From Patescibacteria group bacterium (GTDB taxonomy: Bacteria; Patescibacteriota; Patescibacteriia; UBA1558; S5-K13): a stretch of DNA of 64,000 bases. Below the pieces are notes generated by a model. That model was given only the letters and a program-made list of their open reading frames with translations, did no database searches and had not been told where the DNA came from. The stretch is from positions 28,082 through 92,081 of the forward strand of contig JAQUXC010000002.1 in the NCBI GenBank assembly GCA_028692545.1. Reading direction: 5' to 3'. The position numbers and the translations under genes are program-made. Of this stretch, positions 1 to 49,647 are shown one piece after another; the first letter of the stretch is position 1, and every line of letters begins with the position of its first letter.

Positions 1-1775
1 ATTGTGGACCTACCGCTCATATAGAATCAGATTATAATGGCCAATGTCCTCCTTCTGGATATGGTCCTGATCCAGCAAAATGTTGTATACCAAACTGTTC
101 AGGTGATGAGTCATGTCCTCCATGTTATTCATGTAAAGCTATGACAGGTGGTTTTACTGGATACAGATGCGAATTAAAACCTTTAGAACGCAATAAATGT
201 GGTGATTTATGTGGCTTTTGTGATAGTAATGGTACTTGTACAAATCCTAGTAGTCTTGTTTGTTATGGCACATGTGGTACAAATGCATATCCAGGACAAT
301 GTTCTACTTCAGACTGTGAAGACTATAATTATATAGAAAATACAATTTTTAATAATACTTGTGAATCTGGGTCTCATTGTTGTTCACCTAAATGTACCAG
401 TAATGAAGACTGCCCTGCTTGTTATTCATGTAATACTAGTAGTCATCTATGTGAAATAAATAATGCTGACAATAATAAATGTGATAGCAGTTCATGTAAT
501 CATTGTATTGGTGGCTTCTGTAGCGGATGTATTGATGGACATATTTGTATCGAAGATTTAGATTCTTGCGTTCCATCTTGTTCTACTAAAAATGGTGTTT
601 GTAGAAACCTGTGTCGTGCTAATGAAATTTTCAGCGACCCTAACGTTCTTGATGATTGCACCAACTCTGGAAAAATTTGTTGTATTGGGGGTGATAACGA
701 CACAGGAACACCATGTGCAGATCAAGGTGGAACATGTGTAGATTCTGGTACATGCGTCGGAGTGCCTGAAATAATTACTGAATGCGATGAAATAGCTGGA
801 AAAGTATGTTGCACAACTCCTTGTGTAACAGACTTTAAAGGCAAATGTGAAACAACTACCTACATACCTGAAATAGGAGAATATCCTATAGATGCTATAA
901 CAGAATGTGACTCTCTAAATAAAAAATGTTATACAAAGAAATGCTCTGGAGATGTGTTTACAGGATGGTGTCCAGAGGGATCTACATGCAATCTTGGTAA
1001 TTGTGAAATAGCTGATTCCGAATGTAAAAAAACAGAAGGATTTGTGCTAGTACCAAGAGGAACTGAATGTCCTGCTGGTAAAATAGAAAATGAATCATTT
1101 ACAGCTTCATTAGCAGAAAGCGATGCTGATAAAATTTGTTGCGTACCTTTTACAGAAACAGTGATAGTAGAAACAAGTATGTTTTTTCAAGGTATTGGAA
1201 ATGAATGTATGAACAATGGAAATTGTAGTGTAAACGATATACTAAATGTTGTAATAAATATAACAAAATTTTTGACAGGTATAATAGGAAGTATAGCTTT
1301 GTTGTTTTTCATAATTTCTGGAGTAATGATGATATTTTCTGGTGGAAGTGAAGAAAAAGTAACAAAAGCAAAAACTATGATGACTCAAACTGTAATAGGA
1401 TTATTTATATTTCTAGGTGCATTTATGATAGTATCCTTTATACAAAACAGCTTAGATATAGGAAATCAATATAAAATAACGAGTGCACCACCACAAATGG
1501 TAGAAGTAGTGGTGGAAGAAGAAGAGGAAGAAGAGCAACGACCATGTGAAACAGATCCTGTTCACTGGAGATGTAATTCTGCGCATCCAGGATGGAAGTG
1601 TAGAACATTTACCAATACTACTGTCCGTGATGATCTTGTAGATGTAGATAGATGTGATGACAACAACCATTGCCCAGATGATTCTAATACAATATGTTGT
1701 GCCAATGATGTTACAGAAGGATCTATTTATAGTGGCAATAAGACTTGCCCATGCACAGGCAATTGCACATATTAA
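1..1775 (+). CDS. Cys-rich secreted/membrane protein, 5'-truncated at the window edge, with an embedded TrbC/VirB2-like pilin hairpin. The frame is open from nt 3, so the true start lies upstream.
   Basis: Repeated CPxCYSC and CxxC modules. An internal two-helix hydrophobic segment, IISGVMMIFSGGSEEKVTKAKTMMTQTVIGLFIFLGAF, matches the motif of the downstream pilin paralogues. A poly-Glu linker and a second Cys-rich C-terminal domain follow. Confidence 0.7.
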   Translation, partial: CGPTAHIESDYNGQCPPSGYGPDPAKCCIPNCSGDESCPPCYSCKAMTGGFTGYRCELKPLERNKCGDLCGFCDSNGTCTNPSSLVCYGTCGTNAYPGQCSTSDCEDYNYIENTIFNNTCESGSHCCSPKCTSNEDCPACYSCNTSSHLCEINNADNNKCDSSSCNHCIGGFCSGCIDGHICIEDLDSCVPSCSTKNGVCRNLCRANEIFSDPNVLDDCTNSGKICCIGGDNDTGTPCADQGGTCVDSGTCVGVPEIITECDEIAGKVCCTTPCVTDFKGKCETTTYIPEIGEYPIDAITECDSLNKKCYTKKCSGDVFTGWCPEGSTCNLGNCEIADSECKKTEGFVLVPRGTECPAGKIENESFTASLAESDADKICCVPFTETVIVETSMFFQGIGNECMNNGNCSVNDILNVVINITKFLTGIIGSIALLFFIISGVMMIFSGGSEEKVTKAKTMMTQTVIGLFIFLGAFMIVSFIQNSLDIGNQYKITSAPPQMVEVVVEEEEEEEQRPCETDPVHWRCNSAHPGWKCRTFTNTTVRDDLVDVDRCDDNNHCPDDSNTICCANDVTEGSIYSGNKTCPCTGNCTY

Positions 1776-1809
1776 ATAAATTAAATTAATATTTATAAAT
1801 ATTACCAAC

Positions 1810-2163
1810 ATGAAAAACAAACTAATCAAAAAAAATATTCTATCTTTTCTTATAATACTTGTGGGATTATTTGTATTCCAAAATATATGTCTTGCTGCTA
1901 CACTCACAAATCCACTTGACCCACAAGGCACAGGATTAACAGTTGCCCAATTAATAGGAAAAATTATAAGGGCAATACTTGGTATTGTAGGGTCTCTATC
2001 ATTACTAATGTTTATATATGGTGGCGTCTCTTGGATGACAGCAGGTGGAAGTGAAGAGAAAGCAAAAAAGTCAAAACAAATTTTGGTCAATGCTGCTCTC
2101 GGTATAGTAATAATATTTTCAAGCTACTCAATTCTCAATTGGATATTTGCTATTATACAATAA
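1810..2163 (+). CDS. TrbC/VirB2-like (CPR T4SS-pilin-like) small membrane protein, paralogue 1
   Basis: Signal-peptide-like N-terminus and C-terminal hydrophobic hairpin with conserved G-G-x-x-W-M-T-A-G-G-S-E-E-K motif. Confidence 0.75.
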   Translation: MKNKLIKKNILSFLIILVGLFVFQNICLAATLTNPLDPQGTGLTVAQLIGKIIRAILGIVGSLSLLMFIYGGVSWMTAGGSEEKAKKSKQILVNAALGIVIIFSSYSILNWIFAIIQ

Positions 2164-2241
2164 AAATATTTGTGAATAAATAAAAAAAATAGTATAATCT
2201 TTATATAAAATAAATTAATTAATTCTCATCTATAAATTTAT

Positions 2242-2655
2242 ATGATGGGAAAGAAAGGACAATTAAAAATGTCAAAAACAGTAAAACACATCGTAAGTTT
2301 CATGTTGATACTTGTGATGTCATCATTTATTGTGATGAATGTAAGCGCAGTAACAAGCATGACTGGAACAGGAGCTGTTACTATTCCTACAGTTGGAAGA
2401 TTAGGAACAAATGATATCGATACAACAGCTACAACAATAATAAACTCTGCTTTAGTATTGTTGGGTCTTGTAGCATTAGTAATAGTACTAATGGGTGGAT
2501 TCAAATGGATGACTAGTGCTGGAAATGAAGAAAAAGTAGGAGAAGCAAAAAAACTATTAGGCGCTGGAGTAATAGGGCTTATAATAGTATTTGCTGCTTG
2601 GGGTATAGCAAACTTTATAATGAATGCTGCACAATCAGCTGCAACAACCACATAA
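2242..2655 (+). CDS. TrbC/VirB2-like pilin paralogue 2. The start may instead be 2269 (MSKTVKH), which has an AAAGGA upstream.
   Basis: GGFKWMTSAGNEEK motif plus two hydrophobic helices. Confidence 0.7.
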   Translation: MMGKKGQLKMSKTVKHIVSFMLILVMSSFIVMNVSAVTSMTGTGAVTIPTVGRLGTNDIDTTATTIINSALVLLGLVALVIVLMGGFKWMTSAGNEEKVGEAKKLLGAGVIGLIIVFAAWGIANFIMNAAQSAATTT

Positions 2656-2716
2656 TCAGCGTATATTTTAAACTCAACCCTAAACCTAGACAAAATAAAT
2701 GGTTTAGGGCTGGAAT

Positions 2717-3133
2717 TTGAAATATAAAACTATGAAACTTACAAAAAAAATATTTATTTTTATTTATTTACTTATTTTAGTCAATTTTTTTCAGATTACA
2801 CTATTTACAGCAAAGGCAATTGAAACACCAGCGGGTGGAAGTTATGGACTTACTGACACAGCTAGACAAGCAGGACTTACTGAGGATGGAAAAGTAGAAC
2901 AACCACAAGACATAGCTTCAAGAATAGTAGGTTTTATTCTTGCATTTGTAGGCGTAATAATACTAAACAATATGATATTTGCAGGATATGCATGGATGAC
3001 AGCAGGTGGAAGCGAAGAAAAAATAAAAGCTGCAAAGCAAAAAATGACAAATTCAATAATAGGATTAATTATAATCTTAGCTTCATATATCATAGTAAAT
3101 AGTGTCTTGGGGCTTCTCAACCAAGTCTTATGA
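2717..3133 (+). CDS. TrbC/VirB2-like pilin paralogue 3
   Basis: AGYAWMTAGGSEEK motif. Its stop overlaps the next start (ATGA). Confidence 0.7.
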   Translation: MKYKTMKLTKKIFIFIYLLILVNFFQITLFTAKAIETPAGGSYGLTDTARQAGLTEDGKVEQPQDIASRIVGFILAFVGVIILNNMIFAGYAWMTAGGSEEKIKAAKQKMTNSIIGLIIILASYIIVNSVLGLLNQVL

Positions 3134-3531
3134 TAAAAAACAAAATAATAACTTTTATTATATTAATTTCTATTAGCACTCCTCTCCTAGTTGGTGCTGC
3201 AATACCAATATTACAAAGCGGTGCTGAGGTTCAAAAAGATTTAGACACATCTGCAGAAATACAAGGCTTCAATACATACTCCCAAAATGAAATGATGTCG
3301 GTAAGAATGAAAACTATAAATACAATAATATCTTATGCGCTAAGCTTTATAGGTATAATATTTCTTATAAATATAATAATCGGCGGATTCAAATGGATGA
3401 CTGCAGGTGGAAATGAAGAAAAAATCACCAGCGCAAAACACACTGTAAATAATTCTATACTAGCACTCATTATAGTACTCGGTGCATATATAATAAGTAA
3501 TCTTATAACACAACTAATATCATTATTTTAA
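3130..3531 (+). CDS. TrbC/VirB2-like pilin paralogue 4
   Basis: GGFKWMTAGGNEEK motif. Confidence 0.7.
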   Translation: MIKNKIITFIILISISTPLLVGAAIPILQSGAEVQKDLDTSAEIQGFNTYSQNEMMSVRMKTINTIISYALSFIGIIFLINIIIGGFKWMTAGGNEEKITSAKHTVNNSILALIIVLGAYIISNLITQLISLF

Positions 3532-3540
3532 TTTAATATT

Positions 3541-3969
3541 ATGTTCAAAAAAATTACACTTTCTCTAATAACAATTACAGTAATTATATCTATATTTCAA
3601 TTAAGCATTCCAACAACACAAGCTACGGGAACTGGTGGCAATACTTCTATACCAAATATACCAAATTTAAAAAATAGCAAAACCATATTAGATACATCTG
3701 CTGTTATGATAGGATTTGATACAAGTAAAAGTATAGAAGCAACTATTGGAAATGTTATAAAAATAGCATTGTCTCTTATAGGAATATTGTTTTTGATACT
3801 TATTATAATAGCTGGATTTCAATGGATGACAGCAGGTGGAAATGAAGAAACGGTTACTAAATCAAAAGCAAGAATAAAAAATAGTGCAAATGGACTTCTT
3901 ATAATACTTGGTGCATATATGGTAACTTACTTTATATTAGATATAGTTTTAAAACAAACATTAAAATAA
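3541..3969 (+). CDS. TrbC/VirB2-like pilin paralogue 5
   Basis: AGFQWMTAGGNEET motif. The DNA is near-identical to paralogues 6-8 across the motif. Confidence 0.7.
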   Translation: MFKKITLSLITITVIISIFQLSIPTTQATGTGGNTSIPNIPNLKNSKTILDTSAVMIGFDTSKSIEATIGNVIKIALSLIGILFLILIIIAGFQWMTAGGNEETVTKSKARIKNSANGLLIILGAYMVTYFILDIVLKQTLK

Positions 3970-3983
3970 ATTCAACTAATACC

Positions 3984-4020
3984 AGCTCAGTCGAGTTAAA
4001 CCCGATCAACTGGTTGAGCT
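3984..4020. repeat. Imperfect palindrome containing CAGTCGAGTTAAAC(C/T)CGATCA; a member of a three-copy intergenic motif
   Basis: Inverted repeat agctcagtcgagtt/aactggttgagct. Related copies lie at 7681-7722 (minus orientation) and 45485-45510. Confidence 0.5.
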
Positions 4021-4029
4021 AAAAAATAT

Positions 4030-4446
4030 ATGAAAAAAAATATAACAAAATATTTACTAACACTAATAATTACTATATTTGTTTTTAATATTATCTTGAC
4101 TCCTATAAGTCACGCTGTTACGGGTGTTTCTGGATCAGACACTACTTCAGCACAAATAATGAAAAATCTTCAAACAACTGCAGTGACTAGCGCTGGATAT
4201 AAACAAGGTGATGTTGTAAGTACAATAGCAATTATAGTAAGAATTGTACTTAGCTTGCTTGGAGTATTTTTCCTCATACTTATAATAATGGGCGGATTTC
4301 AATGGATGAGTGCAGGTGGAAATGAAGAAACAGTTACGAAGGCTAGAAAAAGGATAACAGATGCATCAATAGGTCTTGCTATTATAATATTTTCGTATTT
4401 AATATCAATGTTTATAATGGGATTCTTTTATTCTGCTACAATTTAA
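4030..4446 (+). CDS. TrbC/VirB2-like pilin paralogue 6
   Basis: GGFQWMSAGGNEET motif. Confidence 0.7.
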   Translation: MKKNITKYLLTLIITIFVFNIILTPISHAVTGVSGSDTTSAQIMKNLQTTAVTSAGYKQGDVVSTIAIIVRIVLSLLGVFFLILIIMGGFQWMSAGGNEETVTKARKRITDASIGLAIIIFSYLISMFIMGFFYSATI

Positions 4447-4488
4447 TATAAATAAATATCCAGTTATAAAAACTGGACAATCATAACT

Positions 4489-4956
4489 ATGAATAAAAAA
4501 TTAGACGAAAAAATCATCAAAATATCGAAAAGTATAATTATTGTATTTATAATATTTTTTTCAATAACAAATATACAAAATATATTAGCCACTGGGACAG
4601 AACCAAATGATGCAATACTAAGTGGCGGTGAAAAATTACAACAATTTGCTGGTGAAGCTGGAATCAAACAATATACAGATCCAGTAGTAGTTATTACAAG
4701 TATAATAGGTTTTGCACTTGGATTTCTAGGGTTGTTTTTTTTGATACTTATACTGGTAGGTGGATTTCAATGGATGAGCTCTGCTGGAGAAGATGAAAAA
4801 ATAAACAAAGCAAAAGCAATTATAAAAAGTGCTACTATAGGATTGTTCATTGTACTTACTTCATGGATTATAGCAACTACTATTTTTGCATTAATTAATC
4901 ATGGTGCTGGCGGACCAGAAGCTTGGTGGGGTTTTGGATGGTCGTTTGGTTCTTAA
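4489..4956 (+). CDS. TrbC/VirB2-like pilin paralogue 7
   Basis: GGFQWMSSAGEDEK motif and a C-terminal Gly/Trp-rich tail. Confidence 0.7.
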   Translation: MNKKLDEKIIKISKSIIIVFIIFFSITNIQNILATGTEPNDAILSGGEKLQQFAGEAGIKQYTDPVVVITSIIGFALGFLGLFFLILILVGGFQWMSSAGEDEKINKAKAIIKSATIGLFIVLTSWIIATTIFALINHGAGGPEAWWGFGWSFGS

Positions 4957-4977: not shown

Positions 4978-5008
4978 TAAAGGGGAGCCATGCAACTCCC
5001 CTTTTTTA
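4978..5008. terminator. Bidirectional intrinsic terminator between the convergent pilin array and the 5020-5496 gene
   Basis: aaaggggag-ccatgcaa-ctcccctttttt: a GC stem flanked by an A-run and a T-run. Confidence 0.7.
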
Positions 5009-19955: not shown

Positions 19956-22900
19956 ATGAAAATAGAATTAGACAAAGCATACGAAGCGAAAAAATTTGAA
20001 GACGATATATATCAAGAGTGGCTAAACTCTGGATATTTTAATCCTGACAATTTACAAAAAAGAAATAATAAAAGTTTTTCTATAGTCTTACCTCCTCCAA
20101 ATGTCACTGGACAACTTCATATTGGTCATGCAGCAATGCTTGCATATCAAGATTTAATAGTTAGATATCATAGAATGAGAGGTGATAAAACTCTATGGCT
20201 TCCAGGTATGGATCACGCTGCTATTGCAACACAAACTGTGGTTGATAAAAAATTAAAAGCAAAAGGAATAGATAGGCATGAAATTGGAAGAGAAAAATTT
20301 TTGGAAGAAGTAGATAATTTCGTACAAGAATCAAAAACAGTTATAAAAAATCAACTCCAAAAAATGGGCTCATCTCTAGATTGGTCAAGAGAGAGATATA
20401 CAATGGACAAAGGAATTACCAAAGAAGTTCAACATGTTTTTAGAAAATTGTATGAAGATGGACTTATATATAGAGGCGAAAGAGTTATAAATTGGTGCCC
20501 ACATTGTAAATCCACTTTGGCCGATGATGAAGTTGAGCATCGCGAACAAAATACAAAGTTATATTATTTCAAATATTCTAAAGATTTTCCTATCACAATA
20601 GCAACATCCCGCCCTGAGACAAAACTTGGTGATACTGCAGTTGCAGTAAATCCAAAAGATGAAAGGTACAAAAAATATATCGGAAAAACATTTGATATAA
20701 CTTTTTGTGGCATAAAATTACATATAAAAATTATTGCTGATAGAAATGTAGATATGAATTTTGGAACAGGTGCACTTGGTGTAACGCCAGCTCACTCAGC
20801 AATAGATGCAGATCTTGCAAAAGAACATAATTTAAAAATAATAAAAGTTATAGACAAAGATGGAAAGATTTTACCAGGATTTGGAAAATTCTCTGGACTC
20901 AATACAAAAGAAGCAAGTAAAAAAATCATAGAAGAATTAAAGAAAAATAAGCTCATAGAAAAAATTGATGAATATAATAATAATTTATCAATATGTTATA
21001 GATGTGATACTCCAATAGAGCCAATGCCACTTGAGCAATGGTTTGTAAATGTAAACAAAAAAATAAAAAGTAAAAACAATAAAACTCTCAAACAATTATC
21101 AACAGAGGTTGTAAAAAATGGATCTATAAAAATTATTCCGCAGAGGTTTGATAAAGTATATTTTGAATGGATGAATAATTTGAAAGATTGGTGTATTTCA
21201 AGGCAACTTTGGTTTGGACACAGAATGCCTGTTTGGTACAAAGACAAAGAAATTTGGGTACCAAAAACTATTACAGAATTATATGTGATGAGACATGGGG
21301 CGACAGACTGGAATAAAGAAGGAAAAATCCAAGGAAAAACCGATGTTCCAATTGATGAAGACAATGTAAAAAATATAGAAAAAATTGCAGAAAATTTAAA
21401 GAATGAAAAATTTGATATTATAATTTCTTCAACACAAAAAAGAGCAAGACAAACAGCAGAAATAATAAATCAAAAATTAAATATTACTCTTCTTACAAAT
21501 GAATTACTAGTAGAAAGAGATTATGCGGGATTTGAAGGAAAAGAAGCAAAGAAAGTTGCTAAAGAATATCCAGAATATAAAAATAATAAAATTAAATTTG
21601 ATATTCCTGGAGAAGAAGAGAGCTACGATGATATGAAAAAACGTGTAGAAAAATTTTTAGAATACATTAATAAAAATTATAGCAACAAAAAAATACTTAT
21701 AATAACTCACAATGCTGTTATAAGAACTTTTAATATAATTATCAATGAATTAAATGATGAAGAAGCTTCAAAATATAAATTACAACATGAAAAAATAGAA
21801 AAATATCAAATACTTGATGGAAAATATAAAATAAAAGACTGGAAACAAGACCCTGATACATTGGATACTTGGTTTTCTTCTGCACTTTGGACATTTACAA
21901 CACTTGGTGGACCAAACAAAACAAAAGATTTGAAAGATTTTCACCCCACATCTGTAATGGAAACGGGTTATGATATATTATTTTTCTGGGTTGCAAGAAT
22001 GATACTTCTTACAACATATATATTAGATGATATTCCATTTCACACTGTATATCTTCATGGGCTCGTAAGAGACAAAAATGGCAAAAAAATGTCCAAATCA
22101 CTTGGAAATGGAATAGATCCGCTTGATGTAATAAAAAAATATGGAGCAGATGCCTTAAGACTTTCTATGATAATAGGATCAACGCCAGGAAATGATGTAA
22201 AATTGTATGATGAAAAAATATCTGGTTATAGAAATTTTATAAATAAATTATGGAATATTTCAAGATATATTCTTACAAATATAGAAAATCCTAAACTAAT
22301 AGAAAAAAAACCAGAGGCTATTACACTTTCTGATAAATGGATACTAGATGAACTTGATAAAATAATTTACAATACAACTTTAAAAATAGAAAACTTTCAA
22401 TTCTCCCCTGCTGGAGAAGATTTATATGAATTTACTTGGAACAAATTAGCTGATTGGTATATTGAAATTTCAAAATTAGAAAAATCCGCCGACGCTAAAG
22501 CTATGGCGGACAAGGATGAAATATTATTATATATACTTCAAAATTTGTTAAAATTATGGCATCCATTTACTCCATATATAACAGAAGTAATATGGAAAAA
22601 TTTTAGCAATGAATTACTCTTGATACAAAAATGGCCTGAAGTAAAAATCAAGCTAAGCTCGAAGAAATACAAAGAAAACAAAAAGGTAAAGGATGAATTT
22701 TTTATAATACAAAATATAATAACTGAAATAAGAAAATTCAAAAATATAAATAAAATAGACCCGGCAAAAATTATCAATTGTCATATAGAATCAAAAAAAT
22801 ATGAAAAATTGATAAAAGAAAATTCAAAAATCATAGAAATCCTATCTAGAATAAAATTACAAAATAATTTGTACAAAGAAAAAATCCATATTCCAAATAT

Positions 22901-23093
22901 AGATATATATATTGAAATAATTATAGATAAAAAAGAAACCGAAAAACAGATTATCGAACTAGAAAAATATATAAATACTCTTGAAACAAAATTAGCAAAT
23001 AAACAATTCATAGACAATGCGCCAAATGAAATTGTAGAAGCTGAAAAAAAGAAATTAAGAGATGCAAAAGAATTATTAAATAAATTAAAATAA
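19956..23093 (+). CDS. valS: Valine--tRNA ligase carrying an inserted histidine-phosphatase (PGAM-like) domain
   Basis: PPPNVTGQLHIGHA (HIGH), KMSKS, WCISRQLWFGHRMP and DTLDTWFSS motifs. A roughly 190-aa insert with RHGATDWN and IITHNAVIR lies between the last two. Confidence 0.9.
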   Translation: MKIELDKAYEAKKFEDDIYQEWLNSGYFNPDNLQKRNNKSFSIVLPPPNVTGQLHIGHAAMLAYQDLIVRYHRMRGDKTLWLPGMDHAAIATQTVVDKKLKAKGIDRHEIGREKFLEEVDNFVQESKTVIKNQLQKMGSSLDWSRERYTMDKGITKEVQHVFRKLYEDGLIYRGERVINWCPHCKSTLADDEVEHREQNTKLYYFKYSKDFPITIATSRPETKLGDTAVAVNPKDERYKKYIGKTFDITFCGIKLHIKIIADRNVDMNFGTGALGVTPAHSAIDADLAKEHNLKIIKVIDKDGKILPGFGKFSGLNTKEASKKIIEELKKNKLIEKIDEYNNNLSICYRCDTPIEPMPLEQWFVNVNKKIKSKNNKTLKQLSTEVVKNGSIKIIPQRFDKVYFEWMNNLKDWCISRQLWFGHRMPVWYKDKEIWVPKTITELYVMRHGATDWNKEGKIQGKTDVPIDEDNVKNIEKIAENLKNEKFDIIISSTQKRARQTAEIINQKLNITLLTNELLVERDYAGFEGKEAKKVAKEYPEYKNNKIKFDIPGEEESYDDMKKRVEKFLEYINKNYSNKKILIITHNAVIRTFNIIINELNDEEASKYKLQHEKIEKYQILDGKYKIKDWKQDPDTLDTWFSSALWTFTTLGGPNKTKDLKDFHPTSVMETGYDILFFWVARMILLTTYILDDIPFHTVYLHGLVRDKNGKKMSKSLGNGIDPLDVIKKYGADALRLSMIIGSTPGNDVKLYDEKISGYRNFINKLWNISRYILTNIENPKLIEKKPEAITLSDKWILDELDKIIYNTTLKIENFQFSPAGEDLYEFTWNKLADWYIEISKLEKSADAKAMADKDEILLYILQNLLKLWHPFTPYITEVIWKNFSNELLLIQKWPEVKIKLSSKKYKENKKVKDEFFIIQNIITEIRKFKNINKIDPAKIINCHIESKKYEKLIKENSKIIEILSRIKLQNNLYKEKIHIPNIDIYIEIIIDKKETEKQIIELEKYINTLETKLANKQFIDNAPNEIVEAEKKKLRDAKELLNKLK

Positions 23094-28667: not shown

Positions 28668-28742
28668 GCGAGTATCGTATAGTGGCTATTATACGGCCTT
28701 GCCAAGGCTGAGAGACGGGTCCGATTCCCGTTACTCGCTCCA
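28668..28742 (+). tRNA. tRNA-Gly (anticodon GCC); integration target
   Basis: Acceptor GCGAGTA/TACTCGC, anticodon arm CGGCC-TTGCCAA-GGCTG, T-arm ACGGG-TCCGATT-CCCGT, and CCA. Confidence 0.8.
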
Positions 28743-28773
28743 TTAAAGACGCCTATTTATGGGTCTTTTTTGT

Positions 28774-29853
28774 TTATGGCAAACAAATTGTGGCCATATT
28801 GTGGCCAATATTATATTTCTGTTCACTTAAAGACCTTATTGCATCAACTGTCGCAAGTGGTCCAAGATGAGAATATCTCATTGTAGTTTTAACATCAGAA
28901 TGCCCCAATAACTCTTTTACAACAAGTATTGAAATTCCTCTTTGAACTAAATGAGAAGCAAATGTATGTCTTAAATTATGCCATCCTATTTTTCTTAAAC
29001 CACTTAACTGACAGGCACTATGAAGTTTGTTTAGTGCCAAATTTGAAGTATAAGATTTTCCATTAACATTTGGGAATACTAAACCTGTTTTTATAGATCT
29101 GGCTTCAAGCATATCAAGAAGTTGTGGTGCAAGAGGGATATATCTAATCTTATTACTTTTTGTGCTCCCAATTAATCCTCTGGTAATAGAACGACGAATA
29201 ATAATTTTCTTATTCTTAAGGTCAACATCACTCCAATCAAGGACTGCCAATTCCCCAAATCTTAAACCAGTCATATAAACCATCAGAATCATTTCTCCTA
29301 TTATTTCATTTGCGCCAATTAGAAGTGAAGATAACTCTTCATTACTTAGAAAATCAAATTTCTGTGGTGGAACATTTAATAACCTCATTTTTGGAACTTG
29401 ATTTACACACTCCCATTCTTGAGCCGTCTTAAGACATTTACTTAGAATTGTTAAAATATTGTTGATTGTCTTTGGACTTAATCCTTCCTCAAGTTTCTTT
29501 GCTTTGAACTCCTCTATCTTCAGCACACTTATCTTGTTTAGTGGGAGTTTACCAAAAAAAGGAATTAAATGTTTATCAAGAATATACTTTTTTCCTACTT
29601 GCTCAGATGGTTTATTATTATTCATTACATAGGTTTTATGCCATTTATATGAAAACTCTTCAAATAATGGAATCTTAATCTCTTTTACTTTTTCAACTAT
29701 CTCTTCACCACGAGCTAATTTCTGTCTAATCAAAGACTCGTAAACTTTGGCCCCAGCAAAGCTATTTTCAGGACTAGGCATTCTATATCTTATTCTATTG
29801 AATCTAAAACCTATCCAATATTTTTTTCCTCTCTTAAAAATACTCATATTCAT
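28774..29853 (-). CDS. int: Tyrosine site-specific integrase (phage integrase family)
   Basis: C-terminal catalytic box WHNLRHTFAS...LLGHSDVKTTMRYSHL (R, HxxR, Y). It sits adjacent to the tRNA. Confidence 0.9.
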   Translation of the reverse strand: MNMSIFKRGKKYWIGFRFNRIRYRMPSPENSFAGAKVYESLIRQKLARGEEIVEKVKEIKIPLFEEFSYKWHKTYVMNNNKPSEQVGKKYILDKHLIPFFGKLPLNKISVLKIEEFKAKKLEEGLSPKTINNILTILSKCLKTAQEWECVNQVPKMRLLNVPPQKFDFLSNEELSSLLIGANEIIGEMILMVYMTGLRFGELAVLDWSDVDLKNKKIIIRRSITRGLIGSTKSNKIRYIPLAPQLLDMLEARSIKTGLVFPNVNGKSYTSNLALNKLHSACQLSGLRKIGWHNLRHTFASHLVQRGISILVVKELLGHSDVKTTMRYSHLGPLATVDAIRSLSEQKYNIGHNMATICLP

Positions 29854-30077
29854 TTTGAGATTACGTTGACTTGGACATTGTCTAAATAAGCCAGAACATC
29901 TTCTTTCTTAAATCTTAAGCTACCACCAATTTTGTAAAACTTGATTACTCTTTGATCTACCAACCTATAAACAGTTGGAGTAGAAATACTAAAAAATTTA
30001 GCAAGATCAATTGGTGTTAAGAATGGTTTATTTATAATTTTGTCCAAATCTTCAATCATTTTATTGTTAAGGAACAA
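29850..30077 (-). CDS. xis: Excisionase/MerR-type HTH DNA-binding protein
   Basis: 75 aa; the ISTPTVYRLV helix-turn-helix overlaps the integrase start. Confidence 0.65.
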   Translation of the reverse strand: MFLNNKMIEDLDKIINKPFLTPIDLAKFFSISTPTVYRLVDQRVIKFYKIGGSLRFKKEDVLAYLDNVQVNVISK

Positions 30078-30251
30078 TATTGGTGAGATAAAAACCTCTA
30101 TCTCTGGACAATATCATCCTATCATTTATTAACCTTAATTTAAAGTTATTTTATAGGTTAATTTTAAGTTTTCTTAAATATTTATAATTTAGAATTTTTA
30201 GAGGAATTGACTATTAATTGATAATTAATTTAATTTTTAATAGTATTTTTT

Positions 30252-30355
30252 ACCTGTTAATTTACAGGAAAAGCAGATAAATTTATTTTTGCTGTTAACT
30301 TGCTGATAAAACAGCATTGATTACCTGATATTTATCTGATAAAGCAGATAATTTA
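30252..30355. promoter_or_regulatory. Iteron/operator cluster upstream of the xis-int operon
   Basis: At least five copies of CWGATAW (gcagataaa, gctgataaa, cctgatatt, tctgataaa, gcagataat), including the palindrome atctgataaagcagat, plus the cctgttaatttacagg palindrome. Confidence 0.5.
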
Positions 30356-30557
30356 TACTATCATTTATTTATCCTTTGTTAATCAAAATAGATAATTACA
30401 ATATAAATATTCAATTTTGTAAAGATTTCTATTTGATATAACAAGTAAATAACATATAGTCACAATACAGTAATAATATATTTATTTATCTTATAGGGAA
30501 AAACTATATAGTAACTGTATCTATTCTGTAACAATATATAGTTACATTGTTACTATA

Positions 30558-30941
30558 CTAGTTATTGAACTTTATATTCTCAATTTCGAGTTCTTCTTCA
30601 CTGTTATCTTGTACCTTAAATTTCTTCTTATAATATTCCTGTTGGGATTTTTTAAATTGTATTATTATTGCTTCCTCCATTTTTTTCCATTCTTCCTTTG
30701 GTTCTAAAAAAAACATTGGTTGATAACGCCCTGCAAAATAAGAAGGTGGCTGTATCCATATTTTGTCTCCAAACACATTATCATATTCAGAGTCCATAAT
30801 TCTAAATCCTTTAATGTTGATATTCTTATATCTTAATATTGCCGTGGCTTTTAACTTACCTTCATCTTTAATTTTAATAATGACTTCTACATCATTAACA
30901 TTAATTAAATTTTGATCACTTTTTTCATTTTCATTTTCCAT
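30558..30941 (-). CDS. Hypothetical element protein, possibly SpoVG-like nucleic-acid binding (weak)
   Basis: The central region KLKATAILRYKNINIKGFRIMDS...IQPPSY is loosely colinear with SpoVG. The operator-like repeats tatatagtaac lie 3' of it. Confidence 0.35.
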   Translation of the reverse strand: MENENEKSDQNLINVNDVEVIIKIKDEGKLKATAILRYKNINIKGFRIMDSEYDNVFGDKIWIQPPSYFAGRYQPMFFLEPKEEWKKMEEAIIIQFKKSQQEYYKKKFKVQDNSEEELEIENIKFNN

Positions 30942-31028
30942 ATTTTTTTGCTTTATTTGAATTAATTATTTAAAAATGTAACTATATTCATTTCTTTAAT
31001 TTAAATATCTATAAACGTCTATATACCC

Positions 31029-31256
31029 CTAAAATTTGTTGTCGTCAGATGGTTTTGAAAGACACTCGAGATAAAATAATAATTGCTTAACCTCATTTTT
31101 TACATAATCATCTTTTTCTACTAATTTATAAAACCAACGATGAATTGTTTGATTACTAAATCCTTGATCTTTAATTGCTTCTACAAAACAAATATATGAG
31201 TTCCAATATGGATTTCTTTTTTGTATTTTATTAAGTCTTCTTTCTAGTGATTTCAT
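31029..31256 (-). CDS. Small hypothetical protein on the element
   Basis: 75-aa ORF in an operon-like run on the minus strand. Confidence 0.4.
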   Translation of the reverse strand: MKSLERRLNKIQKRNPYWNSYICFVEAIKDQGFSNQTIHRWFYKLVEKDDYVKNEVKQLLFYLECLSKPSDDNKF

Positions 31257-31267
31257 AATGTTATTAA

Positions 31268-31504
31268 TTATTCTTTAATATAAATCAAATTTTTAATCTC
31301 TTTTATTAAACTAAAAAACGCTATTGGCTCAACCAATAACTCTTTTTTCCAAAATCCTTCTATTAATTTGTCTAAATCATTTTCTCTCTTGAAATAGAAT
31401 TGGACTCTTAATGGATTTATTTTGTCTATTCCCTCTATTTTGCAACCAAAATAGCAAAGAACTACACAAAGACTCAAATCACTTGTTGAAAATAAGTTTT
31501 TCAT
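31268..31504 (-). CDS. Small hypothetical protein on the element
   Basis: 78-aa ORF. Confidence 0.4.
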   Translation of the reverse strand: MKNLFSTSDLSLCVVLCYFGCKIEGIDKINPLRVQFYFKRENDLDKLIEGFWKKELLVEPIAFFSLIKEIKNLIYIKE

Positions 31505-31660
31505 ATTAGTCTTTTTCCTTTCATATAATTTTTATTAATATTAATTTTCTATTCTTCTTATGTAGGTATATTGTGAAATTTCACAAAATACAAAAAAATG
31601 GCTTGAAATAGCCATTTTTTTACAATTCTAAGTCTAAAAACTATATGTTTTTTTCACAGA

Positions 31661-32641
31661 TTACACATCATCTACACCTGGTAAATATTGTTTTTTTGTA
31701 TTTTTTGATAAATACCGTTTTTCTATATCTTTAAAACCATATATTTCTCCATTTCCACGTAAACTCTGTTCAGGATATATTTCAAATTTAGTTTCATACC
31801 CCCCACGCTCTTTAGTTGGATAAAATGGATCATCATCTATGGAAAAATAATTTTTTAAAACTTTAGATAATTTTGATTTAATTTGTCTAGTTTTTTCATT
31901 ATAATTTATACCAAAACACTCCTTATTTAAATTAAACTTTCCTTTATTTATAGAAAGCATTTTTAAAAAAAGCCATTGTTTATTTGGTTTTTTACTTTTT
32001 TGATGACATAAACACATTTTTTCAGAATTCGTTTTTTCTAAAAATTTATTTTTTACATATATATTTATATCATCTCCATTTAAAAAATTAATCCTTATAT
32101 CTTCCCATCCAGTACCCTCTGGAAATTTTTTTGATATTTTACAATTTTTTTCAATCTTTCTTGACTTTACAGTAATAAATTTATTTTCTAATTCTTCCTT
32201 ATATTCTATTAATTTTTTTATATTTGGCTTTGTAACTACAAAACACGTATTTCCTACACGTTCTACACTTTCAAAACACCTCTTTTCTTTAAGTTTAATT
32301 AAAAGACTATAACGTTCCACAATAGTCATCAAATTTTCTTCAATACCTAAATCATATGCTTCCATTTCGATTCTTTCTCTCCCTTCACGAGCTATACATT
32401 TTTCAATAATTTTGTCCATCATATAAACAAGTTCGTCTTTGTCACTTTTACTAATACGTTCTATTCTTATTCTTTCACGACTTTCTCGTTTTTTATCATT
32501 CTCTTCCATTCGTTGTTGATATGCACGATTCTCTTGTTCTTCTACGTCTTTAGAGCGAAGAAATTGATTAAATCCCAATTCTTGGAGGGTATGTTTATTA
32601 TTTTGTCCTAAACTATTAGTTAAATTATTATTTTTTTTCAT
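31661..32641 (-). CDS. Hypothetical protein with a charged coiled-coil N-terminus; candidate element replication/regulation protein
   Basis: 326-aa ORF with no recognisable catalytic motif. Confidence 0.5.
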   Translation of the reverse strand: MKKNNNLTNSLGQNNKHTLQELGFNQFLRSKDVEEQENRAYQQRMEENDKKRESRERIRIERISKSDKDELVYMMDKIIEKCIAREGRERIEMEAYDLGIEENLMTIVERYSLLIKLKEKRCFESVERVGNTCFVVTKPNIKKLIEYKEELENKFITVKSRKIEKNCKISKKFPEGTGWEDIRINFLNGDDINIYVKNKFLEKTNSEKMCLCHQKSKKPNKQWLFLKMLSINKGKFNLNKECFGINYNEKTRQIKSKLSKVLKNYFSIDDDPFYPTKERGGYETKFEIYPEQSLRGNGEIYGFKDIEKRYLSKNTKKQYLPGVDDV

Positions 32642-32786
32642 ATAATCTTCATATTAATCTATATTAAACTTAGCTGAAATTGATTTATTTTTCAAGATTT
32701 CAAGTTGATTTTTGTTAACAAAATTAACTTTACCCTCATAAATAAAGGAGGTATAATGGAAATATCTATAATTAAAAAATAAATAT

Positions 32787-34886
32787 ATGAAAAAAACATT
32801 TTTACTCCTTATAGTGTTTTTATGTCTAGGAGCAATACCTTATAATTTTAGTAATGCTGTTACACAAAGTCAAATTAGTTCTACGGTTCAAATTGTATGT
32901 CCAGATAATTATGGAAATTGGTTCAGTGGATCGGGAACGATAATAGACCAGAAAGGAATTATTTTAACCAATAAGCACGTTGTTACAGATGAATATGGTG
33001 GAATAATAGATACTTGTTTTATAGGATTTGTTGAATCAATAAGTAAAGAACCAAATTTTGGAACAGAAATAAACCCTAATTTAGCTGAAGTAAAATATCA
33101 TACCACTTCTCAGGATATGGATGTAGCACTTCTATACCTAGACAATCCTACTAATAAAACATATACATATGTTGATATTTGGAATTCTAATTCTGATAAT
33201 TTAAAATTTGGAGATAAGATTGAAGCTGTTGGGTTTCCTGGAATTGGTGGATCCACTATAACATACACATCTGGTGATTTTAGTGGTTTTGGTAGTAACT
33301 CTGATGGAACACAAAATTATATAAAAACAACAACTCCACTAGAACATGGAAATTCAGGAGGATCTGCATATAATTCTACGGAACAATTTATTGGTATTCC
33401 AACGATGGTTGTAGCTGGCACATTGAATTCATTAAGTTATTTGTTATCTGTAAATAGTATTAAAAATTGGTTATCTGAAATTTTAGGGAGTCAATATCAA
33501 CAAGGTATTGTAGAACAGGAACCCATTATAGAAAGACCGACTACTAGCATTCAAAATGATATCACTCCACCGAATTTTAACTTGTCAGGTCAGCTCTGTT
33601 ATTGGGTCTATGAAGATAATTATGATTTTATAGGAGGAAGATGTTTTCCAAAAAATTTAGGAAAATTAGAACCATATAATCATATACAATTTATATTATT
33701 TACTGAAGATCTATATAAAATTGATCCTAATGGGTTAGCAAAGACATATTATTATTTTGATACAGTTCCACATAGTAAAATTGATAATAATGTTATTAAA
33801 TATGTGCCAAAGTATTTGAATTCAGCACAGACTACACTTGCTCTAACGGAAATTATTGATATAGATAGCCCTGGTAAATACTACCTTACCTTTTTTGGGG
33901 AAGATAATCTTGGTAACGTTTCTAGTCCGTATATTTATGAATACGAATACCAACCAGAAATTTTTAAAACGATAAAAAATTTATATTTTTACAAAGATTC
34001 TAATAAAAAACAGCCATTAAAAGCTTACAATGTAGATTTTGATAAAATTGACCAAGGATGGATGTGGGAACCTTTAGAGTGCTACACTAGATTAGATAAT
34101 ATTACTGTAGATTGGAAATATCCAGTTGTTTATGAAGGGTATTCAACAAAGAAAATAAATAGTTTTACAGATTTTGGGGGTACTAAATTTACTGGGAATT
34201 TACAAAACTCTAACCAATATACTATTACAAATATATCTAATGGAAAAATAGTTCAATGGAAAGAGAATCACTATCAAAACGGATTGTCACCCGAAGAACA
34301 AATTTACCAGAAAAGTTTGTCTCCTCATAACAATATATATTATGAATTTTATATGAATCCAACAAATAGTAATATTGTTGAATTAGAACATAAACATAGA
34401 TTTTTAAAATTGATATATAATGAAAATCTTGAACAAGACTTATTATGTAATGATAACTTAGTTTTTGCAGAGACAAATGATTATCCAATTATTGTAGACC
34501 AGGGATTATCTAATCGTTTAAAAGGTAAGTTACTTCTTCAGGTAAACCAAGGAGGTAGAGTTTGGTATGTAAATCCAGATGATGGTAAAAGATTTGAAGT
34601 AACCTTTGCTAATGCATTACCTCTATTTGAAAAATTTGCTCTTGGAATATCTAATAAAGATTTAGAAAAAATTTCATTACACACTAATAATTGGACATCT
34701 GCTACAGGGAATAGATTGAAAGGAAAATTACTTTTACAGGTAGAAGATGGCGGTAGAATTTGGTATGTAGATTTTGATGGCAAAAGATGGGAAGTAACTT
34801 GGGCTAATTTAATGACTTTATTTGAAAGTTTGTCATTAGGTATTACAAACGATAATCTAAATAAAATAGAAATTGGGAGTTTATAA
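32787..34886 (+). CDS. Secreted trypsin-like (S1/chymotrypsin fold) serine protease with a C-terminal tandem GKLLLQV-GGRIWYV repeat domain
   Basis: Signal peptide. Catalytic triad context TNKHVV (His), DVALLYLD (Asp) and GNSGGSAY (Ser). Two roughly 55-aa C-terminal repeats end in KIEIGSL. Confidence 0.8.
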   Translation: MKKTFLLLIVFLCLGAIPYNFSNAVTQSQISSTVQIVCPDNYGNWFSGSGTIIDQKGIILTNKHVVTDEYGGIIDTCFIGFVESISKEPNFGTEINPNLAEVKYHTTSQDMDVALLYLDNPTNKTYTYVDIWNSNSDNLKFGDKIEAVGFPGIGGSTITYTSGDFSGFGSNSDGTQNYIKTTTPLEHGNSGGSAYNSTEQFIGIPTMVVAGTLNSLSYLLSVNSIKNWLSEILGSQYQQGIVEQEPIIERPTTSIQNDITPPNFNLSGQLCYWVYEDNYDFIGGRCFPKNLGKLEPYNHIQFILFTEDLYKIDPNGLAKTYYYFDTVPHSKIDNNVIKYVPKYLNSAQTTLALTEIIDIDSPGKYYLTFFGEDNLGNVSSPYIYEYEYQPEIFKTIKNLYFYKDSNKKQPLKAYNVDFDKIDQGWMWEPLECYTRLDNITVDWKYPVVYEGYSTKKINSFTDFGGTKFTGNLQNSNQYTITNISNGKIVQWKENHYQNGLSPEEQIYQKSLSPHNNIYYEFYMNPTNSNIVELEHKHRFLKLIYNENLEQDLLCNDNLVFAETNDYPIIVDQGLSNRLKGKLLLQVNQGGRVWYVNPDDGKRFEVTFANALPLFEKFALGISNKDLEKISLHTNNWTSATGNRLKGKLLLQVEDGGRIWYVDFDGKRWEVTWANLMTLFESLSLGITNDNLNKIEIGSL

Positions 34887-34903
34887 ATAATAATTTTAAA
34901 TAT

Positions 34904-36388: not shown

Positions 36389-36401
36389 ATATATTAAATA
36401 T

Positions 36402-36641: not shown

Positions 36642-36665
36642 AAAAACTTTAAAATTTATAATAAT

Positions 36666-36956: not shown

Positions 36957-36978
36957 ATCTCATATTGATATAAAAGAT

Positions 36979-37356: not shown

Positions 37357-37375
37357 TAATTAATATATAAAATAT

Positions 37376-37630: not shown

Positions 37631-37642
37631 TAAATAAACCAT

Positions 37643-38239: not shown

Positions 38240-38250
38240 AAGAATAAAGT

Positions 38251-38667: not shown

Positions 38668-38711
38668 ATAATTTGGTAATAATATAAACATAATTATTAT
38701 TTTTAAAAAAT

Positions 38712-41015: not shown

Positions 41016-41075
41016 TAAATAGTCATAATTTTTTAGATACATATAAATTCTTTTTCTTTTTTATTGATTTATTTT

Positions 41076-49645: not shown

Positions 49646-49647
49646 AT

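What the first reader, a model, noticed from the sequence alone, without database searches (positions are those of the whole stretch)
1..4956. Eight tandem VirB2/TrbC-like pilin paralogues, the first fused inside a giant Cys-rich protein
Seen in sequence: seven small ORFs (117-155 aa) follow one another head to tail. Each has a signal-like N-terminus and a hydrophobic hairpin around an almost invariant G-G-F-x-W-M-T/S-A-G-G-N/S-E-E-K core. The upstream gene of more than 590 aa embeds the same hairpin (IFSGGSEEKVTKAK...) between a roughly 400-aa Cys-rich N-domain with CPxCYSC modules and a roughly 130-aa Cys-rich C-domain. Established knowledge: this motif architecture matches the conjugative-pilin-like (VirB2/TrbC, 'T4SS pilin') proteins that are expanded in CPR bacteria. 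Inference: the giant Cys-rich fusion could be a tip or adhesin-bearing pilin variant used for host-cell attachment by an episymbiont. No VirB4, VirB6 or VirD4 gene lies in this window.
Basis: partly seen in the sequence, partly recalled or inferred. Interest (0 to 1): 0.75.

Follow-up and report, generated by a model that had tools for sequence, protein, structure and literature searches.

The report
Conserved eight-gene pilin operon, cysteine-rich leader
A candidate-phyla-radiation (Patescibacteria) bacterium carries an operon of eight conjugative-type pilin genes whose first member bears a huge, fast-evolving, disulfide-rich outer domain; such arrays are already described, but the fixed eight-gene layout and the adhesin-like leader suggest how these tiny bacteria might recognise host cells.

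Summary
Eight co-oriented genes (window 1-4956, + strand) each pass Pfam's PF18895 T4SS_pilin threshold. The first gene is cut by the window edge. In the source contig (GCA_028708725.1) it encodes 774 aa: a signal peptide, a 572-aa ectodomain with 80 Cys, the pilin hairpin, an acidic linker and a 76-aa domain with 10 Cys.

Tandem VirB2-like pilin arrays (2-11 genes) in Patescibacteria were published in 2025, and one is essential in Southlakia. The array as such is therefore known.

Three points are new here:
- The same layout (NTP-transferase, sugar-type binding lipoprotein, Cys-rich leader, seven short pilins) recurs in eight further loci from related genomes and metagenomes.
- Orthology follows gene position: 80% of best hits between loci fall at the same position, against 12.5% by chance. 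All eight genes are under purifying selection.
- The leader's ectodomains evolve about ten times faster than its neighbours, with gain and loss of modules.

This argues for a co-expressed, mixed-subunit surface structure carrying an adhesin-like subunit, not for antigenic switching.

No VirB4, VirB6 or VirD4 gene lies in the 81 kb examined. Pilus assembly and adhesion remain untested. Structure prediction and fold searches were uninformative.

The parts
1..1775 (+). 3' 1775 nt of the leader pilin gene. The full gene is 2325 nt (774 aa) and starts 550 nt upstream of the window, at L001:7642. NCBI names the product 'pilin'.
   Evidence: PF18895 37 bits and PF04956 26.7 bits. 90 Cys against a window background of about 1% Cys.
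1..1241 (+). Part of the leader's N-terminal Cys-rich ectodomain (aa 185-597 of aa 26-597; 80 Cys in the whole domain). It contains repeated CPxCxxC...NKC...CxxCxxGxC modules. The distal half varies with indels; the half near the membrane is conserved.
   Evidence: (internal DNA repeat 81-141 / 378-438). No Pfam family matches. dN 0.25-0.58 against 0.03 for the neighbouring SBP gene.
1242..1451 (+). Pilin hairpin of the leader (aa 598-667): two hydrophobic helices around the loop SGGSEEKVTKAK. No Cys. About 95% identical to its orthologue.
   Evidence: helices 594-629 and 634-673. dN/dS 0.15.
1452..1775 (+). Acidic linker (aa 668-698, VEVVVEEEEEEE), then the C-terminal 10-Cys domain (aa 699-774) and the stop codon.
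   Evidence: The same C-domain occurs in P0002, P0004, P0005 and P0012. It has exactly 10 Cys in three loci.
1810..2163 (+). Pilin 1 (117 aa). It is the shortest and the most VirB2/TrbC-like, and has a conserved LTNPL motif after the signal peptide.
   Evidence: PF18895 39.7 bits and PF04956 29.4 bits, above its cut-off of 27.9. Position-1 orthologues are the best hit in 100% of locus comparisons.
2242..2655 (+). Pilin 2 (137 aa).
   Evidence: PF18895 44.9 bits. NF045849 40.4 bits against a cut-off of 40. Positional orthology 100%.
2732..3133 (+). Pilin 3 (133 aa from ATG 2732; an upstream TTG at 2717 would give 138 aa).
   Evidence: PF18895 33.7 bits. The start follows the gene call and the orthologue. 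Positional orthology 82%.
3130..3531 (+). Pilin 4 (133 aa). It overlaps pilin 3 by 4 nt.
   Evidence: PF18895 28.1 bits. dN/dS 0.10.
3541..3969 (+). Pilin 5 (142 aa).
   Evidence: PF18895 35.8 bits. The AF2 model has a helical hairpin at 65-97 and 102-141 with pLDDT 80-89. Positional orthology 95%.
4030..4446 (+). Pilin 6 (138 aa).
   Evidence: PF18895 30.4 bits. dN/dS 0.14.
4489..4956 (+). Pilin 7 (155 aa), with a Gly/Trp-rich C-terminal tail that recurs in position-7 orthologues.
   Evidence: PF18895 34.8 bits. Tails compared.
4979..5004 (+). Terminator-like hairpin (9-bp stem, 5 GC pairs, then TTTATTT), 23 nt after the last pilin stop. It is the likely end of the operon.
   Evidence: L001 13170-13195 = window 4979-5004. 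Only one weak + strand candidate (5-bp stem, L001 7997-8009, upstream of the window) lies inside the array.

Best explanation
The locus is a chromosomal, vertically inherited operon of a Parcubacteria-type (Komeilibacteria-like) Patescibacterium. It encodes eight VirB2/TrbC-superfamily (PF18895) pilin-like proteins with fixed roles.

Shown here:
- Each protein has a Sec-type signal peptide and a two-helix hydrophobic hairpin.
- The eight genes are old paralogues (32-46% identical).
- Gene order and identity are conserved position by position across related genomes, and each gene is under purifying selection.
- The genes are tightly packed on one strand and end at one terminator.
- The first gene carries a 572-aa ectodomain with 80 Cys and a 76-aa C-terminal domain with 10 Cys. 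These flank the hairpin and evolve far faster than the hairpin.

Inferred:
- After signal-peptide cleavage the hairpins sit in the cytoplasmic membrane with both ends outside and the GG(N/S)EEK loop inside.
- A T4SS encoded elsewhere in the genome extracts them and assembles a pilus-like surface structure of mixed subunits. One or a few short pilins (pilin 1 is the best candidate) would form the shaft, and the others would act as minor or adaptor subunits.
- The leader, too bulky to polymerise on its own, would be incorporated in small numbers, at the tip or sparsely along the shaft. It would display its disulfide-knotted, variable domains to bind the host-cell surface.
- The lipoprotein-type sugar-binding protein encoded 15 nt upstream is probably a partner of the system.
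For: Family:
- PF18895 is above its cut-off for all eight proteins. PF04956 is above its cut-off for pilin 1.
- NF045849 (Mycoplasma ICE pilin-like protein) hits all seven small pilins.

Topology:
- Hydrophobicity analysis finds a signal segment plus two transmembrane segments in every protein.
- AF2 predicts the hairpin at pLDDT 80-89.
- Leader cysteines lie only outside the hairpin. The N-side Cys count is even in 9 of 10 related leaders, and the C-side count is 10 or 0. This is the pattern expected of disulfide-bonded domains outside the cytoplasm.

Conservation:
- Eight further loci (L003, L005, L007-L012) share the order NTP_transferase, SBP, Cys-rich leader, seven pilins.
- The best inter-locus hit lies at the same position in 80% of comparisons overall, and in 100% for positions 0-2.
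- Same-position pairs average 99 bits, against 65-67 bits for other pairs.

Selection:
- dN/dS is 0.10-0.33 for the small pilins, 0.15 for the leader hairpin and 0.47-0.57 for the ectodomains.
- Ectodomain dN is about 10 times that of the neighbouring SBP gene, and the orthologue differs by about 176 aa of indels.

Operon:
- Gaps between genes range from -4 to 78 nt. There is a single terminator after gene 8.
- There is no recent gene conversion; DNA identity between the hairpin cores is 60-80%.

Recurrence of hairpin-ectodomain fusions:
- 72 of the 150 closest cluster representatives are 200 aa or longer, and many are Cys-rich.
- A PF18895+PKD fusion lies next to a PKD-repeat protein.
- In L018 three pilin-domain proteins of 472-556 aa occur in one array, and the SBP gene sits inside that array.

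Literature:
- VirB2-like arrays lie near virB4 in many Patescibacteria.
- The pilin array is essential in Southlakia.
- T4SS pilins are among the secreted adhesion-related genes singled out in the metatranscriptome of a Patescibacteria-methanogen culture.
- Komeilibacteria genomes are listed as VirB4-positive.
Against: - No VirB4, VirB6, VirD4 or other T4SS machinery gene lies in 81 kb of the contig (record positions 53,089-134,003). None lies within 10 kb of the array in any related locus. Whether this genome has a T4SS at all could not be checked.
- No filament made of PF18895 proteins has been seen in any organism, according to the literature found.
- The leader model is unusable (pLDDT 33).
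- A profile of the pilins finds no solved pilin by sequence.
- Adhesion is inferred only from architecture and evolutionary rate.
Confidence: 0.55

Rival explanations
1. Membrane-anchor or display model. The PF18895 hairpin is a two-helix membrane anchor, possibly part of a monoderm T4SS channel or an envelope complex. No extended pilus is made. The leader is a membrane-tethered, Cys-rich surface protein. The seven short proteins form a membrane complex of mixed subunits.
For: - Gram-positive-type T4SSs, the closest relatives of the Patescibacteria system, generally lack pili.
- The hairpin matches a Mycoplasma ICE protein, from a wall-less monoderm.
- Hairpins are fused to very diverse ectodomains: Cys-rich, PKD, a GHSGG hydrolase-like domain, and a domain with HxH-type motifs. 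This is what a generic anchor would show.
- No machinery genes lie nearby.
Against: - A plain anchor would not need eight conserved, position-specific paralogues with a near-invariant loop motif.
- Homologues elsewhere sit inside T4SS clusters and are essential together with them.
- Poly-pilin proteins with 4-8 hairpins in one chain suggest that hairpins pack side by side, as in a polymer.
Confidence: 0.25
2. Variation model. The paralogues are alternative major pilins that are used interchangeably, or switched, to evade host defences or broaden host range. This has been suggested for Patescibacteria arrays by analogy with Bartonella and Anaplasma.
For: - The published interpretation of such arrays is of this kind.
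- The paralogues are divergent, at 32-46% identity.
- The N-terminal segments of the small pilins evolve somewhat faster than their hairpins in some genes.
Against: - Each position has its own orthologue across lineages that are only about 50-60% identical in housekeeping neighbours.
- All eight genes are under purifying selection.
- There are no recent duplications, conversion tracts or silent cassettes.
- The operon structure implies co-transcription.
- Only the leader's ectodomain shows the rapid change expected of a variable surface determinant.
Confidence: 0.1
3. T4SS-independent uptake apparatus. Together with the co-transcribed orphan sugar-binding lipoprotein, the octet forms a CPR-specific surface organelle or conduit. 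It captures host-derived carbohydrates or other molecules, and is assembled without VirB4-type machinery.
For: - The SBP gene lies directly upstream (15 nt) in all ten related loci. It lies inside the pilin array in L018/L019.
- It is carbohydrate-type and looks like a lipoprotein.
- No ABC permease or ATPase gene was found next to the SBP or in the 72 kb from the SBP gene to the end of the window.
- A recent review speculates that the pilus serves as an uptake conduit.
Against: - Wider synteny of the region is also conserved, so adjacency alone is weak evidence in the close loci.
- No alternative assembly ATPase is linked to the array.
- SBPs are normally partners of ABC importers, which may be encoded elsewhere.
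Confidence: 0.1

Closest known systems
VirB2-like pilin arrays of Patescibacteria (Quinonero-Coronel et al. 2025, PMC12102498; the essential six-pilin array of Southlakia epibionticum ML1, Wang et al. 2023, PMC10633639)
   Same: - Same Pfam family (PF18895/PF04956).
- Same tandem arrangement. Eight genes falls within the reported range of 2-11.
- Same low identity between paralogues.
- Same phylum.
   Different: - This array is not next to virB4 or other T4SS genes.
- It is preceded by an SBP gene.
- It has a fixed 1+7 composition with position-specific orthologues in related genomes.
- Its first member carries about 650 aa of Cys-rich ectodomain.
- None of these points is mentioned in the papers found.
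VirB2/TrbC/TraA conjugative pilins of diderm T4SSs (Pfam PF04956)
   Same: - A signal peptide followed by two hydrophobic helices joined by a short polar loop.
- Small size of the seven short members.
- Pilin 1 passes the PF04956 threshold.
   Different: - Most members fail PF04956.
- The mature proteins have an extra variable N-terminal segment of 20-40 aa.
- The organism is a monoderm.
- No fusion of a classical VirB2 pilin to a large ectodomain is known to me (from memory, not tested).
- No solved pilin is detectable by sequence or specifically by fold.
Mbov_0395 / ICE_MMCAP2_0565 pilin-like conjugal transfer protein of Mycoplasma ICEs (NCBIfam NF045849)
   Same: - The hairpin aligns end to end (80-position model) with all seven small pilins, at E 1e-5 to 2e-10.
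- The host is a monoderm.
   Different: - Only pilin 2 reaches the equivalog cut-off.
- In Mycoplasma it is a single gene in a mobile ICE. Here it is an eight-gene chromosomal operon.
Minor-pilin and tip-adhesin sets of other filaments (type IV pilus minor pilins with PilY1/PilC, T2SS pseudopilins GspH-K, VirB5 or CagL on T4SS pili, FimH on chaperone-usher pili). These are functional analogies recalled from memory.
   Same: - A conserved set of several distinct, co-transcribed subunits.
- One bulky, fast-evolving subunit is suited to receptor binding.
   Different: - The protein folds and assembly machineries are unrelated.
- Here the adhesin-like domain is fused into a pilin-family subunit instead of being a separate protein.

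Membership tests
Pfam PF18895 T4SS_pilin | Whole-protein HMM score at or above the gathering cut-off (26.6 bits) | tested here: met
   All eight proteins score 28.1-44.9 bits. The full-length leader scores 37.0 bits.
Pfam PF04956 TrbC/VirB2 pilin | HMM score at or above the gathering cut-off (27.9 bits) | tested here: inconclusive
   Pilin 1 scores 29.4 bits (met). The leader scores 26.7-27.2 bits (just below). The other six have no reported hit.
VirB2/TrbC-type conjugative pilin | Cleavable signal peptide followed by two hydrophobic helices joined by a short polar loop | tested here: met
   Hydrophobicity segments are present in all eight proteins. Small-x-small sites end each signal segment (sequence). 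AF2 predicts the hairpin at pLDDT 80-89. No dedicated signal-peptide predictor was available.
VirB2/TrbC-type conjugative pilin | Fold specifically resembles solved conjugative pilins | tested here: inconclusive
VirB2/TrbC-type conjugative pilin | Encoded with, or dependent on, T4SS machinery (VirB4 ATPase, VirB6, VirB3/PrgI) | tested here: not met
   None lies in 81 kb around the array or within 10 kb in the related loci.
VirB2/TrbC-type conjugative pilin | Polymerises into an extracellular filament | not testable with these tools
   This needs microscopy or proteomics. The literature says it is still only a possibility for Patescibacteria.
Patescibacteria VirB2 array (as defined in PMC12102498) | Two or more PF18895/PF04956 genes in tandem, or separated by one non-pilin gene, in a Patescibacteria genome | tested here: met
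   Eight consecutive genes. The source is annotated as a Patescibacteria group bacterium.
NCBIfam NF045849 Mbov_0395 pilin-like conjugal transfer protein (equivalog) | Score at or above the cut-off (40 bits) | tested here: inconclusive
   Pilin 2 scores 40.4 bits. The other six small pilins score 22.9-33.8 bits. The leader has no hit.

The most novel reading that the evidence does not exclude
The NTP-transferase, SBP, leader and seven-pilin operon encodes a previously unrecognised, ordered surface organelle of mixed subunits in Parcubacteria-type CPR bacteria. Eight non-interchangeable pilin-family subunits would build a filament or conduit. Its head is a hypervariable, disulfide-knotted host-recognition domain fused directly into a pilin. 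Its partner is an orphan sugar-binding lipoprotein. More generally, the PF18895 hairpin would be a CPR-wide 'plug-in' module that mounts adhesins and enzymes (Cys-rich, PKD, hydrolase-like) on this structure. That would make it the long-sought host-specificity determinant of these episymbionts.
Probability: 0.2. Interest if true: 0.8.

Novelty: new variant of a known kind. Interest (0 to 1): 0.5.

Why it matters
Patescibacteria make up a large share of bacterial diversity and appear to live attached to other cells. How they recognise hosts is mostly unknown. The 2025 survey of their T4SS explicitly found no adhesins.

A pilin-family protein with a large, rapidly diversifying, disulfide-rich ectodomain is a concrete candidate host-recognition determinant. 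It is always encoded first in a conserved eight-pilin operon.

The position-specific conservation of the other seven pilins changes how these arrays should be read. They look like a fixed multi-subunit assembly, not a set of interchangeable variants.

Both ideas can be tested by comparative genomics (leader variation against host identity), by transcriptomics and proteomics of enrichment cultures, and by genetics in tractable relatives.

Tried and rejected
- AlphaFold2 of the 774-aa leader with its single orthologue gave mean pLDDT 32.9 and pTM 0.18. Only secondary structure was usable, so no fold search was run on it.
- A profile of 29 pilins against PDB sequences gave no meaningful hit.
- The word-indexed homologue search found only one relative of the leader. 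The exhaustive HMMER search found 8371 clusters, so the first result understates the family.
- The promoter scan showed no enrichment over shuffled sequence (62 found against 55 expected). No Shine-Dalgarno motifs lie upstream of the genes.
- Rfam found nothing in the operon region.
- The source assembly is not in the held part of the supplementary tables of the 2025 survey, one of which is truncated. Its VirB4 status could therefore not be read off.
- One gene at the end of the window was not on record for contig look-up.
- I considered that the array might be part of a mobile element. I rejected this because housekeeping synteny is conserved on both sides across loci.
- I considered recent tandem duplication or gene conversion. 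I rejected this because DNA identity between copies is only 60-80% even in the core.
- I considered assembly by the type IV pilus ATPase (PilB) found in the window and next to the array in L018. I judged it unlikely because these proteins lack the class III (N-methyl) signal of type IV pilins.

Full report
**What is there**

On the + strand of window 1-4956 lie eight consecutive genes. The first reading frame is open from base 3 and runs off the left edge of the window.

An exact-protein look-up placed the window on contig JAQVYI010000002.1 (158,562 bp) of assembly GCA_028708725.1. NCBI labels this MAG 'Patescibacteria group bacterium'. Window base 1 corresponds to base 8192 of locus L001, and the 12,163 nt of overlap are identical.

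The first gene is 774 aa long and starts 550 nt before the window. It has these parts:
- a signal peptide (MTKKILIFSIIFTFFGLINFDKVFA)
- a 572-aa N-terminal domain with 80 cysteines
- a cysteine-free two-helix hydrophobic hairpin (aa 598-667)
- an acidic linker
- a 76-aa C-terminal domain with 10 cysteines

The seven following genes encode proteins of 117-155 aa. Each has a signal-like N-terminus ending in a small-x-small site, a variable stretch of 20-40 aa, and the same hairpin around a ...WMTAGGNEEK... loop. They contain at most one cysteine each. The average cysteine content of the window's other proteins is about 1%.

**Family**

All eight proteins exceed Pfam's gathering cut-off for PF18895 (T4SS_pilin). 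Pilin 1 also exceeds the cut-off of PF04956 (TrbC/VirB2), and the leader falls just below it. All seven small pilins also match NCBIfam NF045849, a pilin-like conjugal-transfer protein of Mycoplasma ICEs. Pilin 2 reaches that model's cut-off.

The Cys-rich domains match no Pfam or NCBIfam family. The leader model was unusable (pLDDT 33).

**What was already known**

A 2025 survey of 3,035 Patescibacteria genomes used these same two Pfam models. It reported 441 VirB2 arrays of 2-11 pilin genes in 383 assemblies, with about 25% mean identity within arrays. It suggested a role in antigenic variation or host range. It also stated that no adhesins such as PrgB were detected.

In Southlakia epibionticum a six-pilin array inside the T4SS cluster is essential for epibiotic growth. 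Whether a pilus is made is still open.

None of the papers found mentions Cys-rich or other ectodomain-bearing pilins. The array itself is therefore a new member of a known kind.

**What the comparison adds: a conserved octet**

One close relative (L003) carries the whole locus. Its small pilins are 79-87% identical to those of the window, and its leader is 57% identical.

A scan of species-representative genomes with the leader subfamily found ten loci. Six of them (L005, L007, L008, L010, L011, L012) contain eight pilin genes, each beginning with a Cys-bearing leader of 194-402 aa. A seventh (L009) has the same start but is cut by the contig end.

All share the flanks. Gmk and RluD lie on one strand, then NTP-transferase, a solute-binding protein of about 460 aa, the leader and the pilins. 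Most loci then have GT2, sulfatase-family and PGI genes. The neighbouring housekeeping proteins are only 47-85% identical, so this is old vertical inheritance and not a mobile element. One locus is labelled Candidatus Komeilibacteria, in the Parcubacteria group.

Orthology follows position. Among seven complete loci, the best hit in another locus is the gene at the same position in 80% of cases, against 12.5% by chance. By position:

| Position | Best hit at same position |
|---|---|
| 0, 1, 2 | 100% |
| 5 | 95% |
| 3 | 82% |
| 6 | 68% |
| 7 | 55% |
| 4 | 38% |

Same-position pairs average 99 bits, against 65-67 bits for all other pairs. Position-specific features recur, such as LTNPL at the mature N-terminus of pilin 1 and an aromatic tail on pilin 7.

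Between the window and L003, every pilin is under purifying selection (dN/dS 0.10-0.33). DNA identity between paralogous cores is only 60-80%, so there has been no recent duplication or conversion. Gaps between genes range from -4 to 78 nt. The one strong + strand terminator-like hairpin follows the last gene, at window 4979-5004.

Together these results argue for eight co-expressed, non-interchangeable subunits, and against a switching repertoire.

**The leader**

Its hairpin is about 95% identical to the orthologue's (dN/dS 0.15). Its ectodomains have dN of 0.25-0.58, against 0.03 for the adjacent SBP gene. The distal N-domain differs from the orthologue by about 176 aa of inserted or deleted modules.

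Repeated CPxCxxC...NKC...CxxCxxGxC modules are visible at both protein and DNA level.

Across ten related leaders, cysteines are almost confined to the regions flanking the hairpin. The N-side count is even in nine of the ten, and the C-side count is either 10 or 0. This is what fully disulfide-bonded extracellular domains on both outer ends of an in-out-in hairpin would show.

In solved conjugative pili the loop faces the lumen and both termini face outward (my knowledge, not tested here). If the leader enters such a filament, both Cys-rich domains would be exposed. Their bulk would preclude a homopolymer, hence the inference of a minor or tip subunit.

The exhaustive HMMER search shows that this protein is the extreme of a continuum. 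It found 8371 clusters with E of 1e-3 or less, nearly all matching through the hairpin. Of the 150 closest, 72 are 200 aa or longer, and many are Cys-rich (598, 570, 422, 402 and 399 aa among them). Others have different ectodomains.

Contexts of three of these were retrieved:
- A 570-aa leader is followed by a pilin-1-like gene.
- A more distant lineage has twelve PF18895 genes, three of them 472-556 aa long. The SBP gene sits inside that array.
- A locus has an eight-hairpin 'poly-pilin', a pilin fused to a PKD domain, and a PKD-repeat protein.

The PF18895 hairpin is thus recurrently joined to adhesion-type or other ectodomains.

**What is missing**

No T4SS machinery gene lies in the window, in the 7.6 kb upstream, in the 10 kb downstream, or within 10 kb of any related array.

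The only secretion ATPase nearby is a PilB-type type IV pilus ATPase. It is unlikely to handle these proteins, because they lack the class III signal of type IV pilins.

The survey's Table S1 lists Komeilibacteria genomes as VirB4-positive. This assembly is not in the held part of that table, and I could not search the rest of the genome. Dependence on a T4SS, filament formation and adhesion therefore remain inferences.

**Verdict**

The 'tip or adhesin pilin' idea is plausible and is now better supported.

The array is a known phenomenon. Three things go beyond what I could find described:
- the conserved 1+7 operon with position-specific orthologues
- its link to an orphan sugar-binding lipoprotein
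- the large, fast-evolving, disulfide-rich ectodomains fused into the first pilin

I rate this a new variant of a known kind, of moderate interest.

Noticed in passing
L001:6232-7626 (15 nt upstream of the leader gene, just outside the window); L018:8612-9991: A carbohydrate-type solute-binding protein (SBP_bac_1/8, with a lipoprotein-like N-terminus LIITSGFGC) directly precedes the leader pilin in all ten related loci. In the more distant L018/L019 it sits between two pilin-domain genes. No ABC permease or ATPase gene was found nearby. It may be a functional partner of the pilins.
   Followed up: partly
P0008 = L020:9925-12387; also P0011, P0015, P0026 and P0063: 'Poly-pilins': single polypeptides of 427-820 aa containing 4-8 tandem PF18895 hairpins. 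A whole pilin array appears to be fused into one protein.
   Followed up: partly
L020:13152-14303; L018:11526-13196; L013:9995-10876 and L014:1276-2211: PF18895 hairpins are fused to other ectodomains. One carries a PKD domain (27.3 bits, above its cut-off) and lies next to a 718-aa PKD-repeat protein. One is a 556-aa protein with a GHSGG serine-hydrolase-like motif. One has a C-terminal domain with HxH-type motifs and lies beside glycosyltransferase and Wzy genes.
   Followed up: partly
window 19956-23093 (+): The valyl-tRNA synthetase (1045 aa) has a complete histidine-phosphatase domain (His_Phos_1, aa 442-630, E 4e-43) inserted within the catalytic tRNA-synt_1 domain.
   Followed up: no
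window 28668-45100: A tyrosine integrase (28774-29853, - strand) abuts tRNA-Gly(GCC) (28668-42). Genes typical of an integrated element follow: a trypsin-like 699-aa protein, a 494-aa secreted protein with 5% Cys and a cEGF hit, DUF3761, an FtsK-gamma protein, an M78/IrrE and PIN(DUF4411) pair, and a PKD protein.
   Followed up: no
window 48314-50985 (-): An OLD-family nuclease (AAA_21 plus OLD-like TOPRIM) lies next to a DUF6938 protein. This looks like a defence gene pair.
   Followed up: no
window 58345-61382: A CarS-like CDP-archaeol synthase family protein (PF01864, E 2.5e-30) lies beside a CDP-alcohol phosphatidyltransferase and a GDPD-domain protein. An archaeal-type lipid enzyme family in a bacterial genome is unusual.
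   Followed up: no
L005, L007, L012 (records CAZXFD01, CAYRHT01, CAZWKI01): Three MAGs titled 'uncultured Gammaproteobacteria bacterium' carry the same Patescibacteria-type pilin locus and flanking synteny. Their taxonomic labels are probably wrong.
   Followed up: no
window 52134-56866 (-); L018:18557-21518: The trio of FtsH, a 320-356-aa membrane protein and a PilB-type ATPase lies 47 kb from the pilin array in the window. In L018 it follows the array directly, after one GT2 gene. This may be coincidental synteny.
   Followed up: no
L001:542-3327 (5-7 kb upstream of the leader, outside the window): DsbD_2 (CcdA-like), thioredoxin, ArsP and ArsR-type genes lie upstream of the 90-Cys leader gene. 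They are not conserved at this place in the orthologous locus L003.
   Followed up: no
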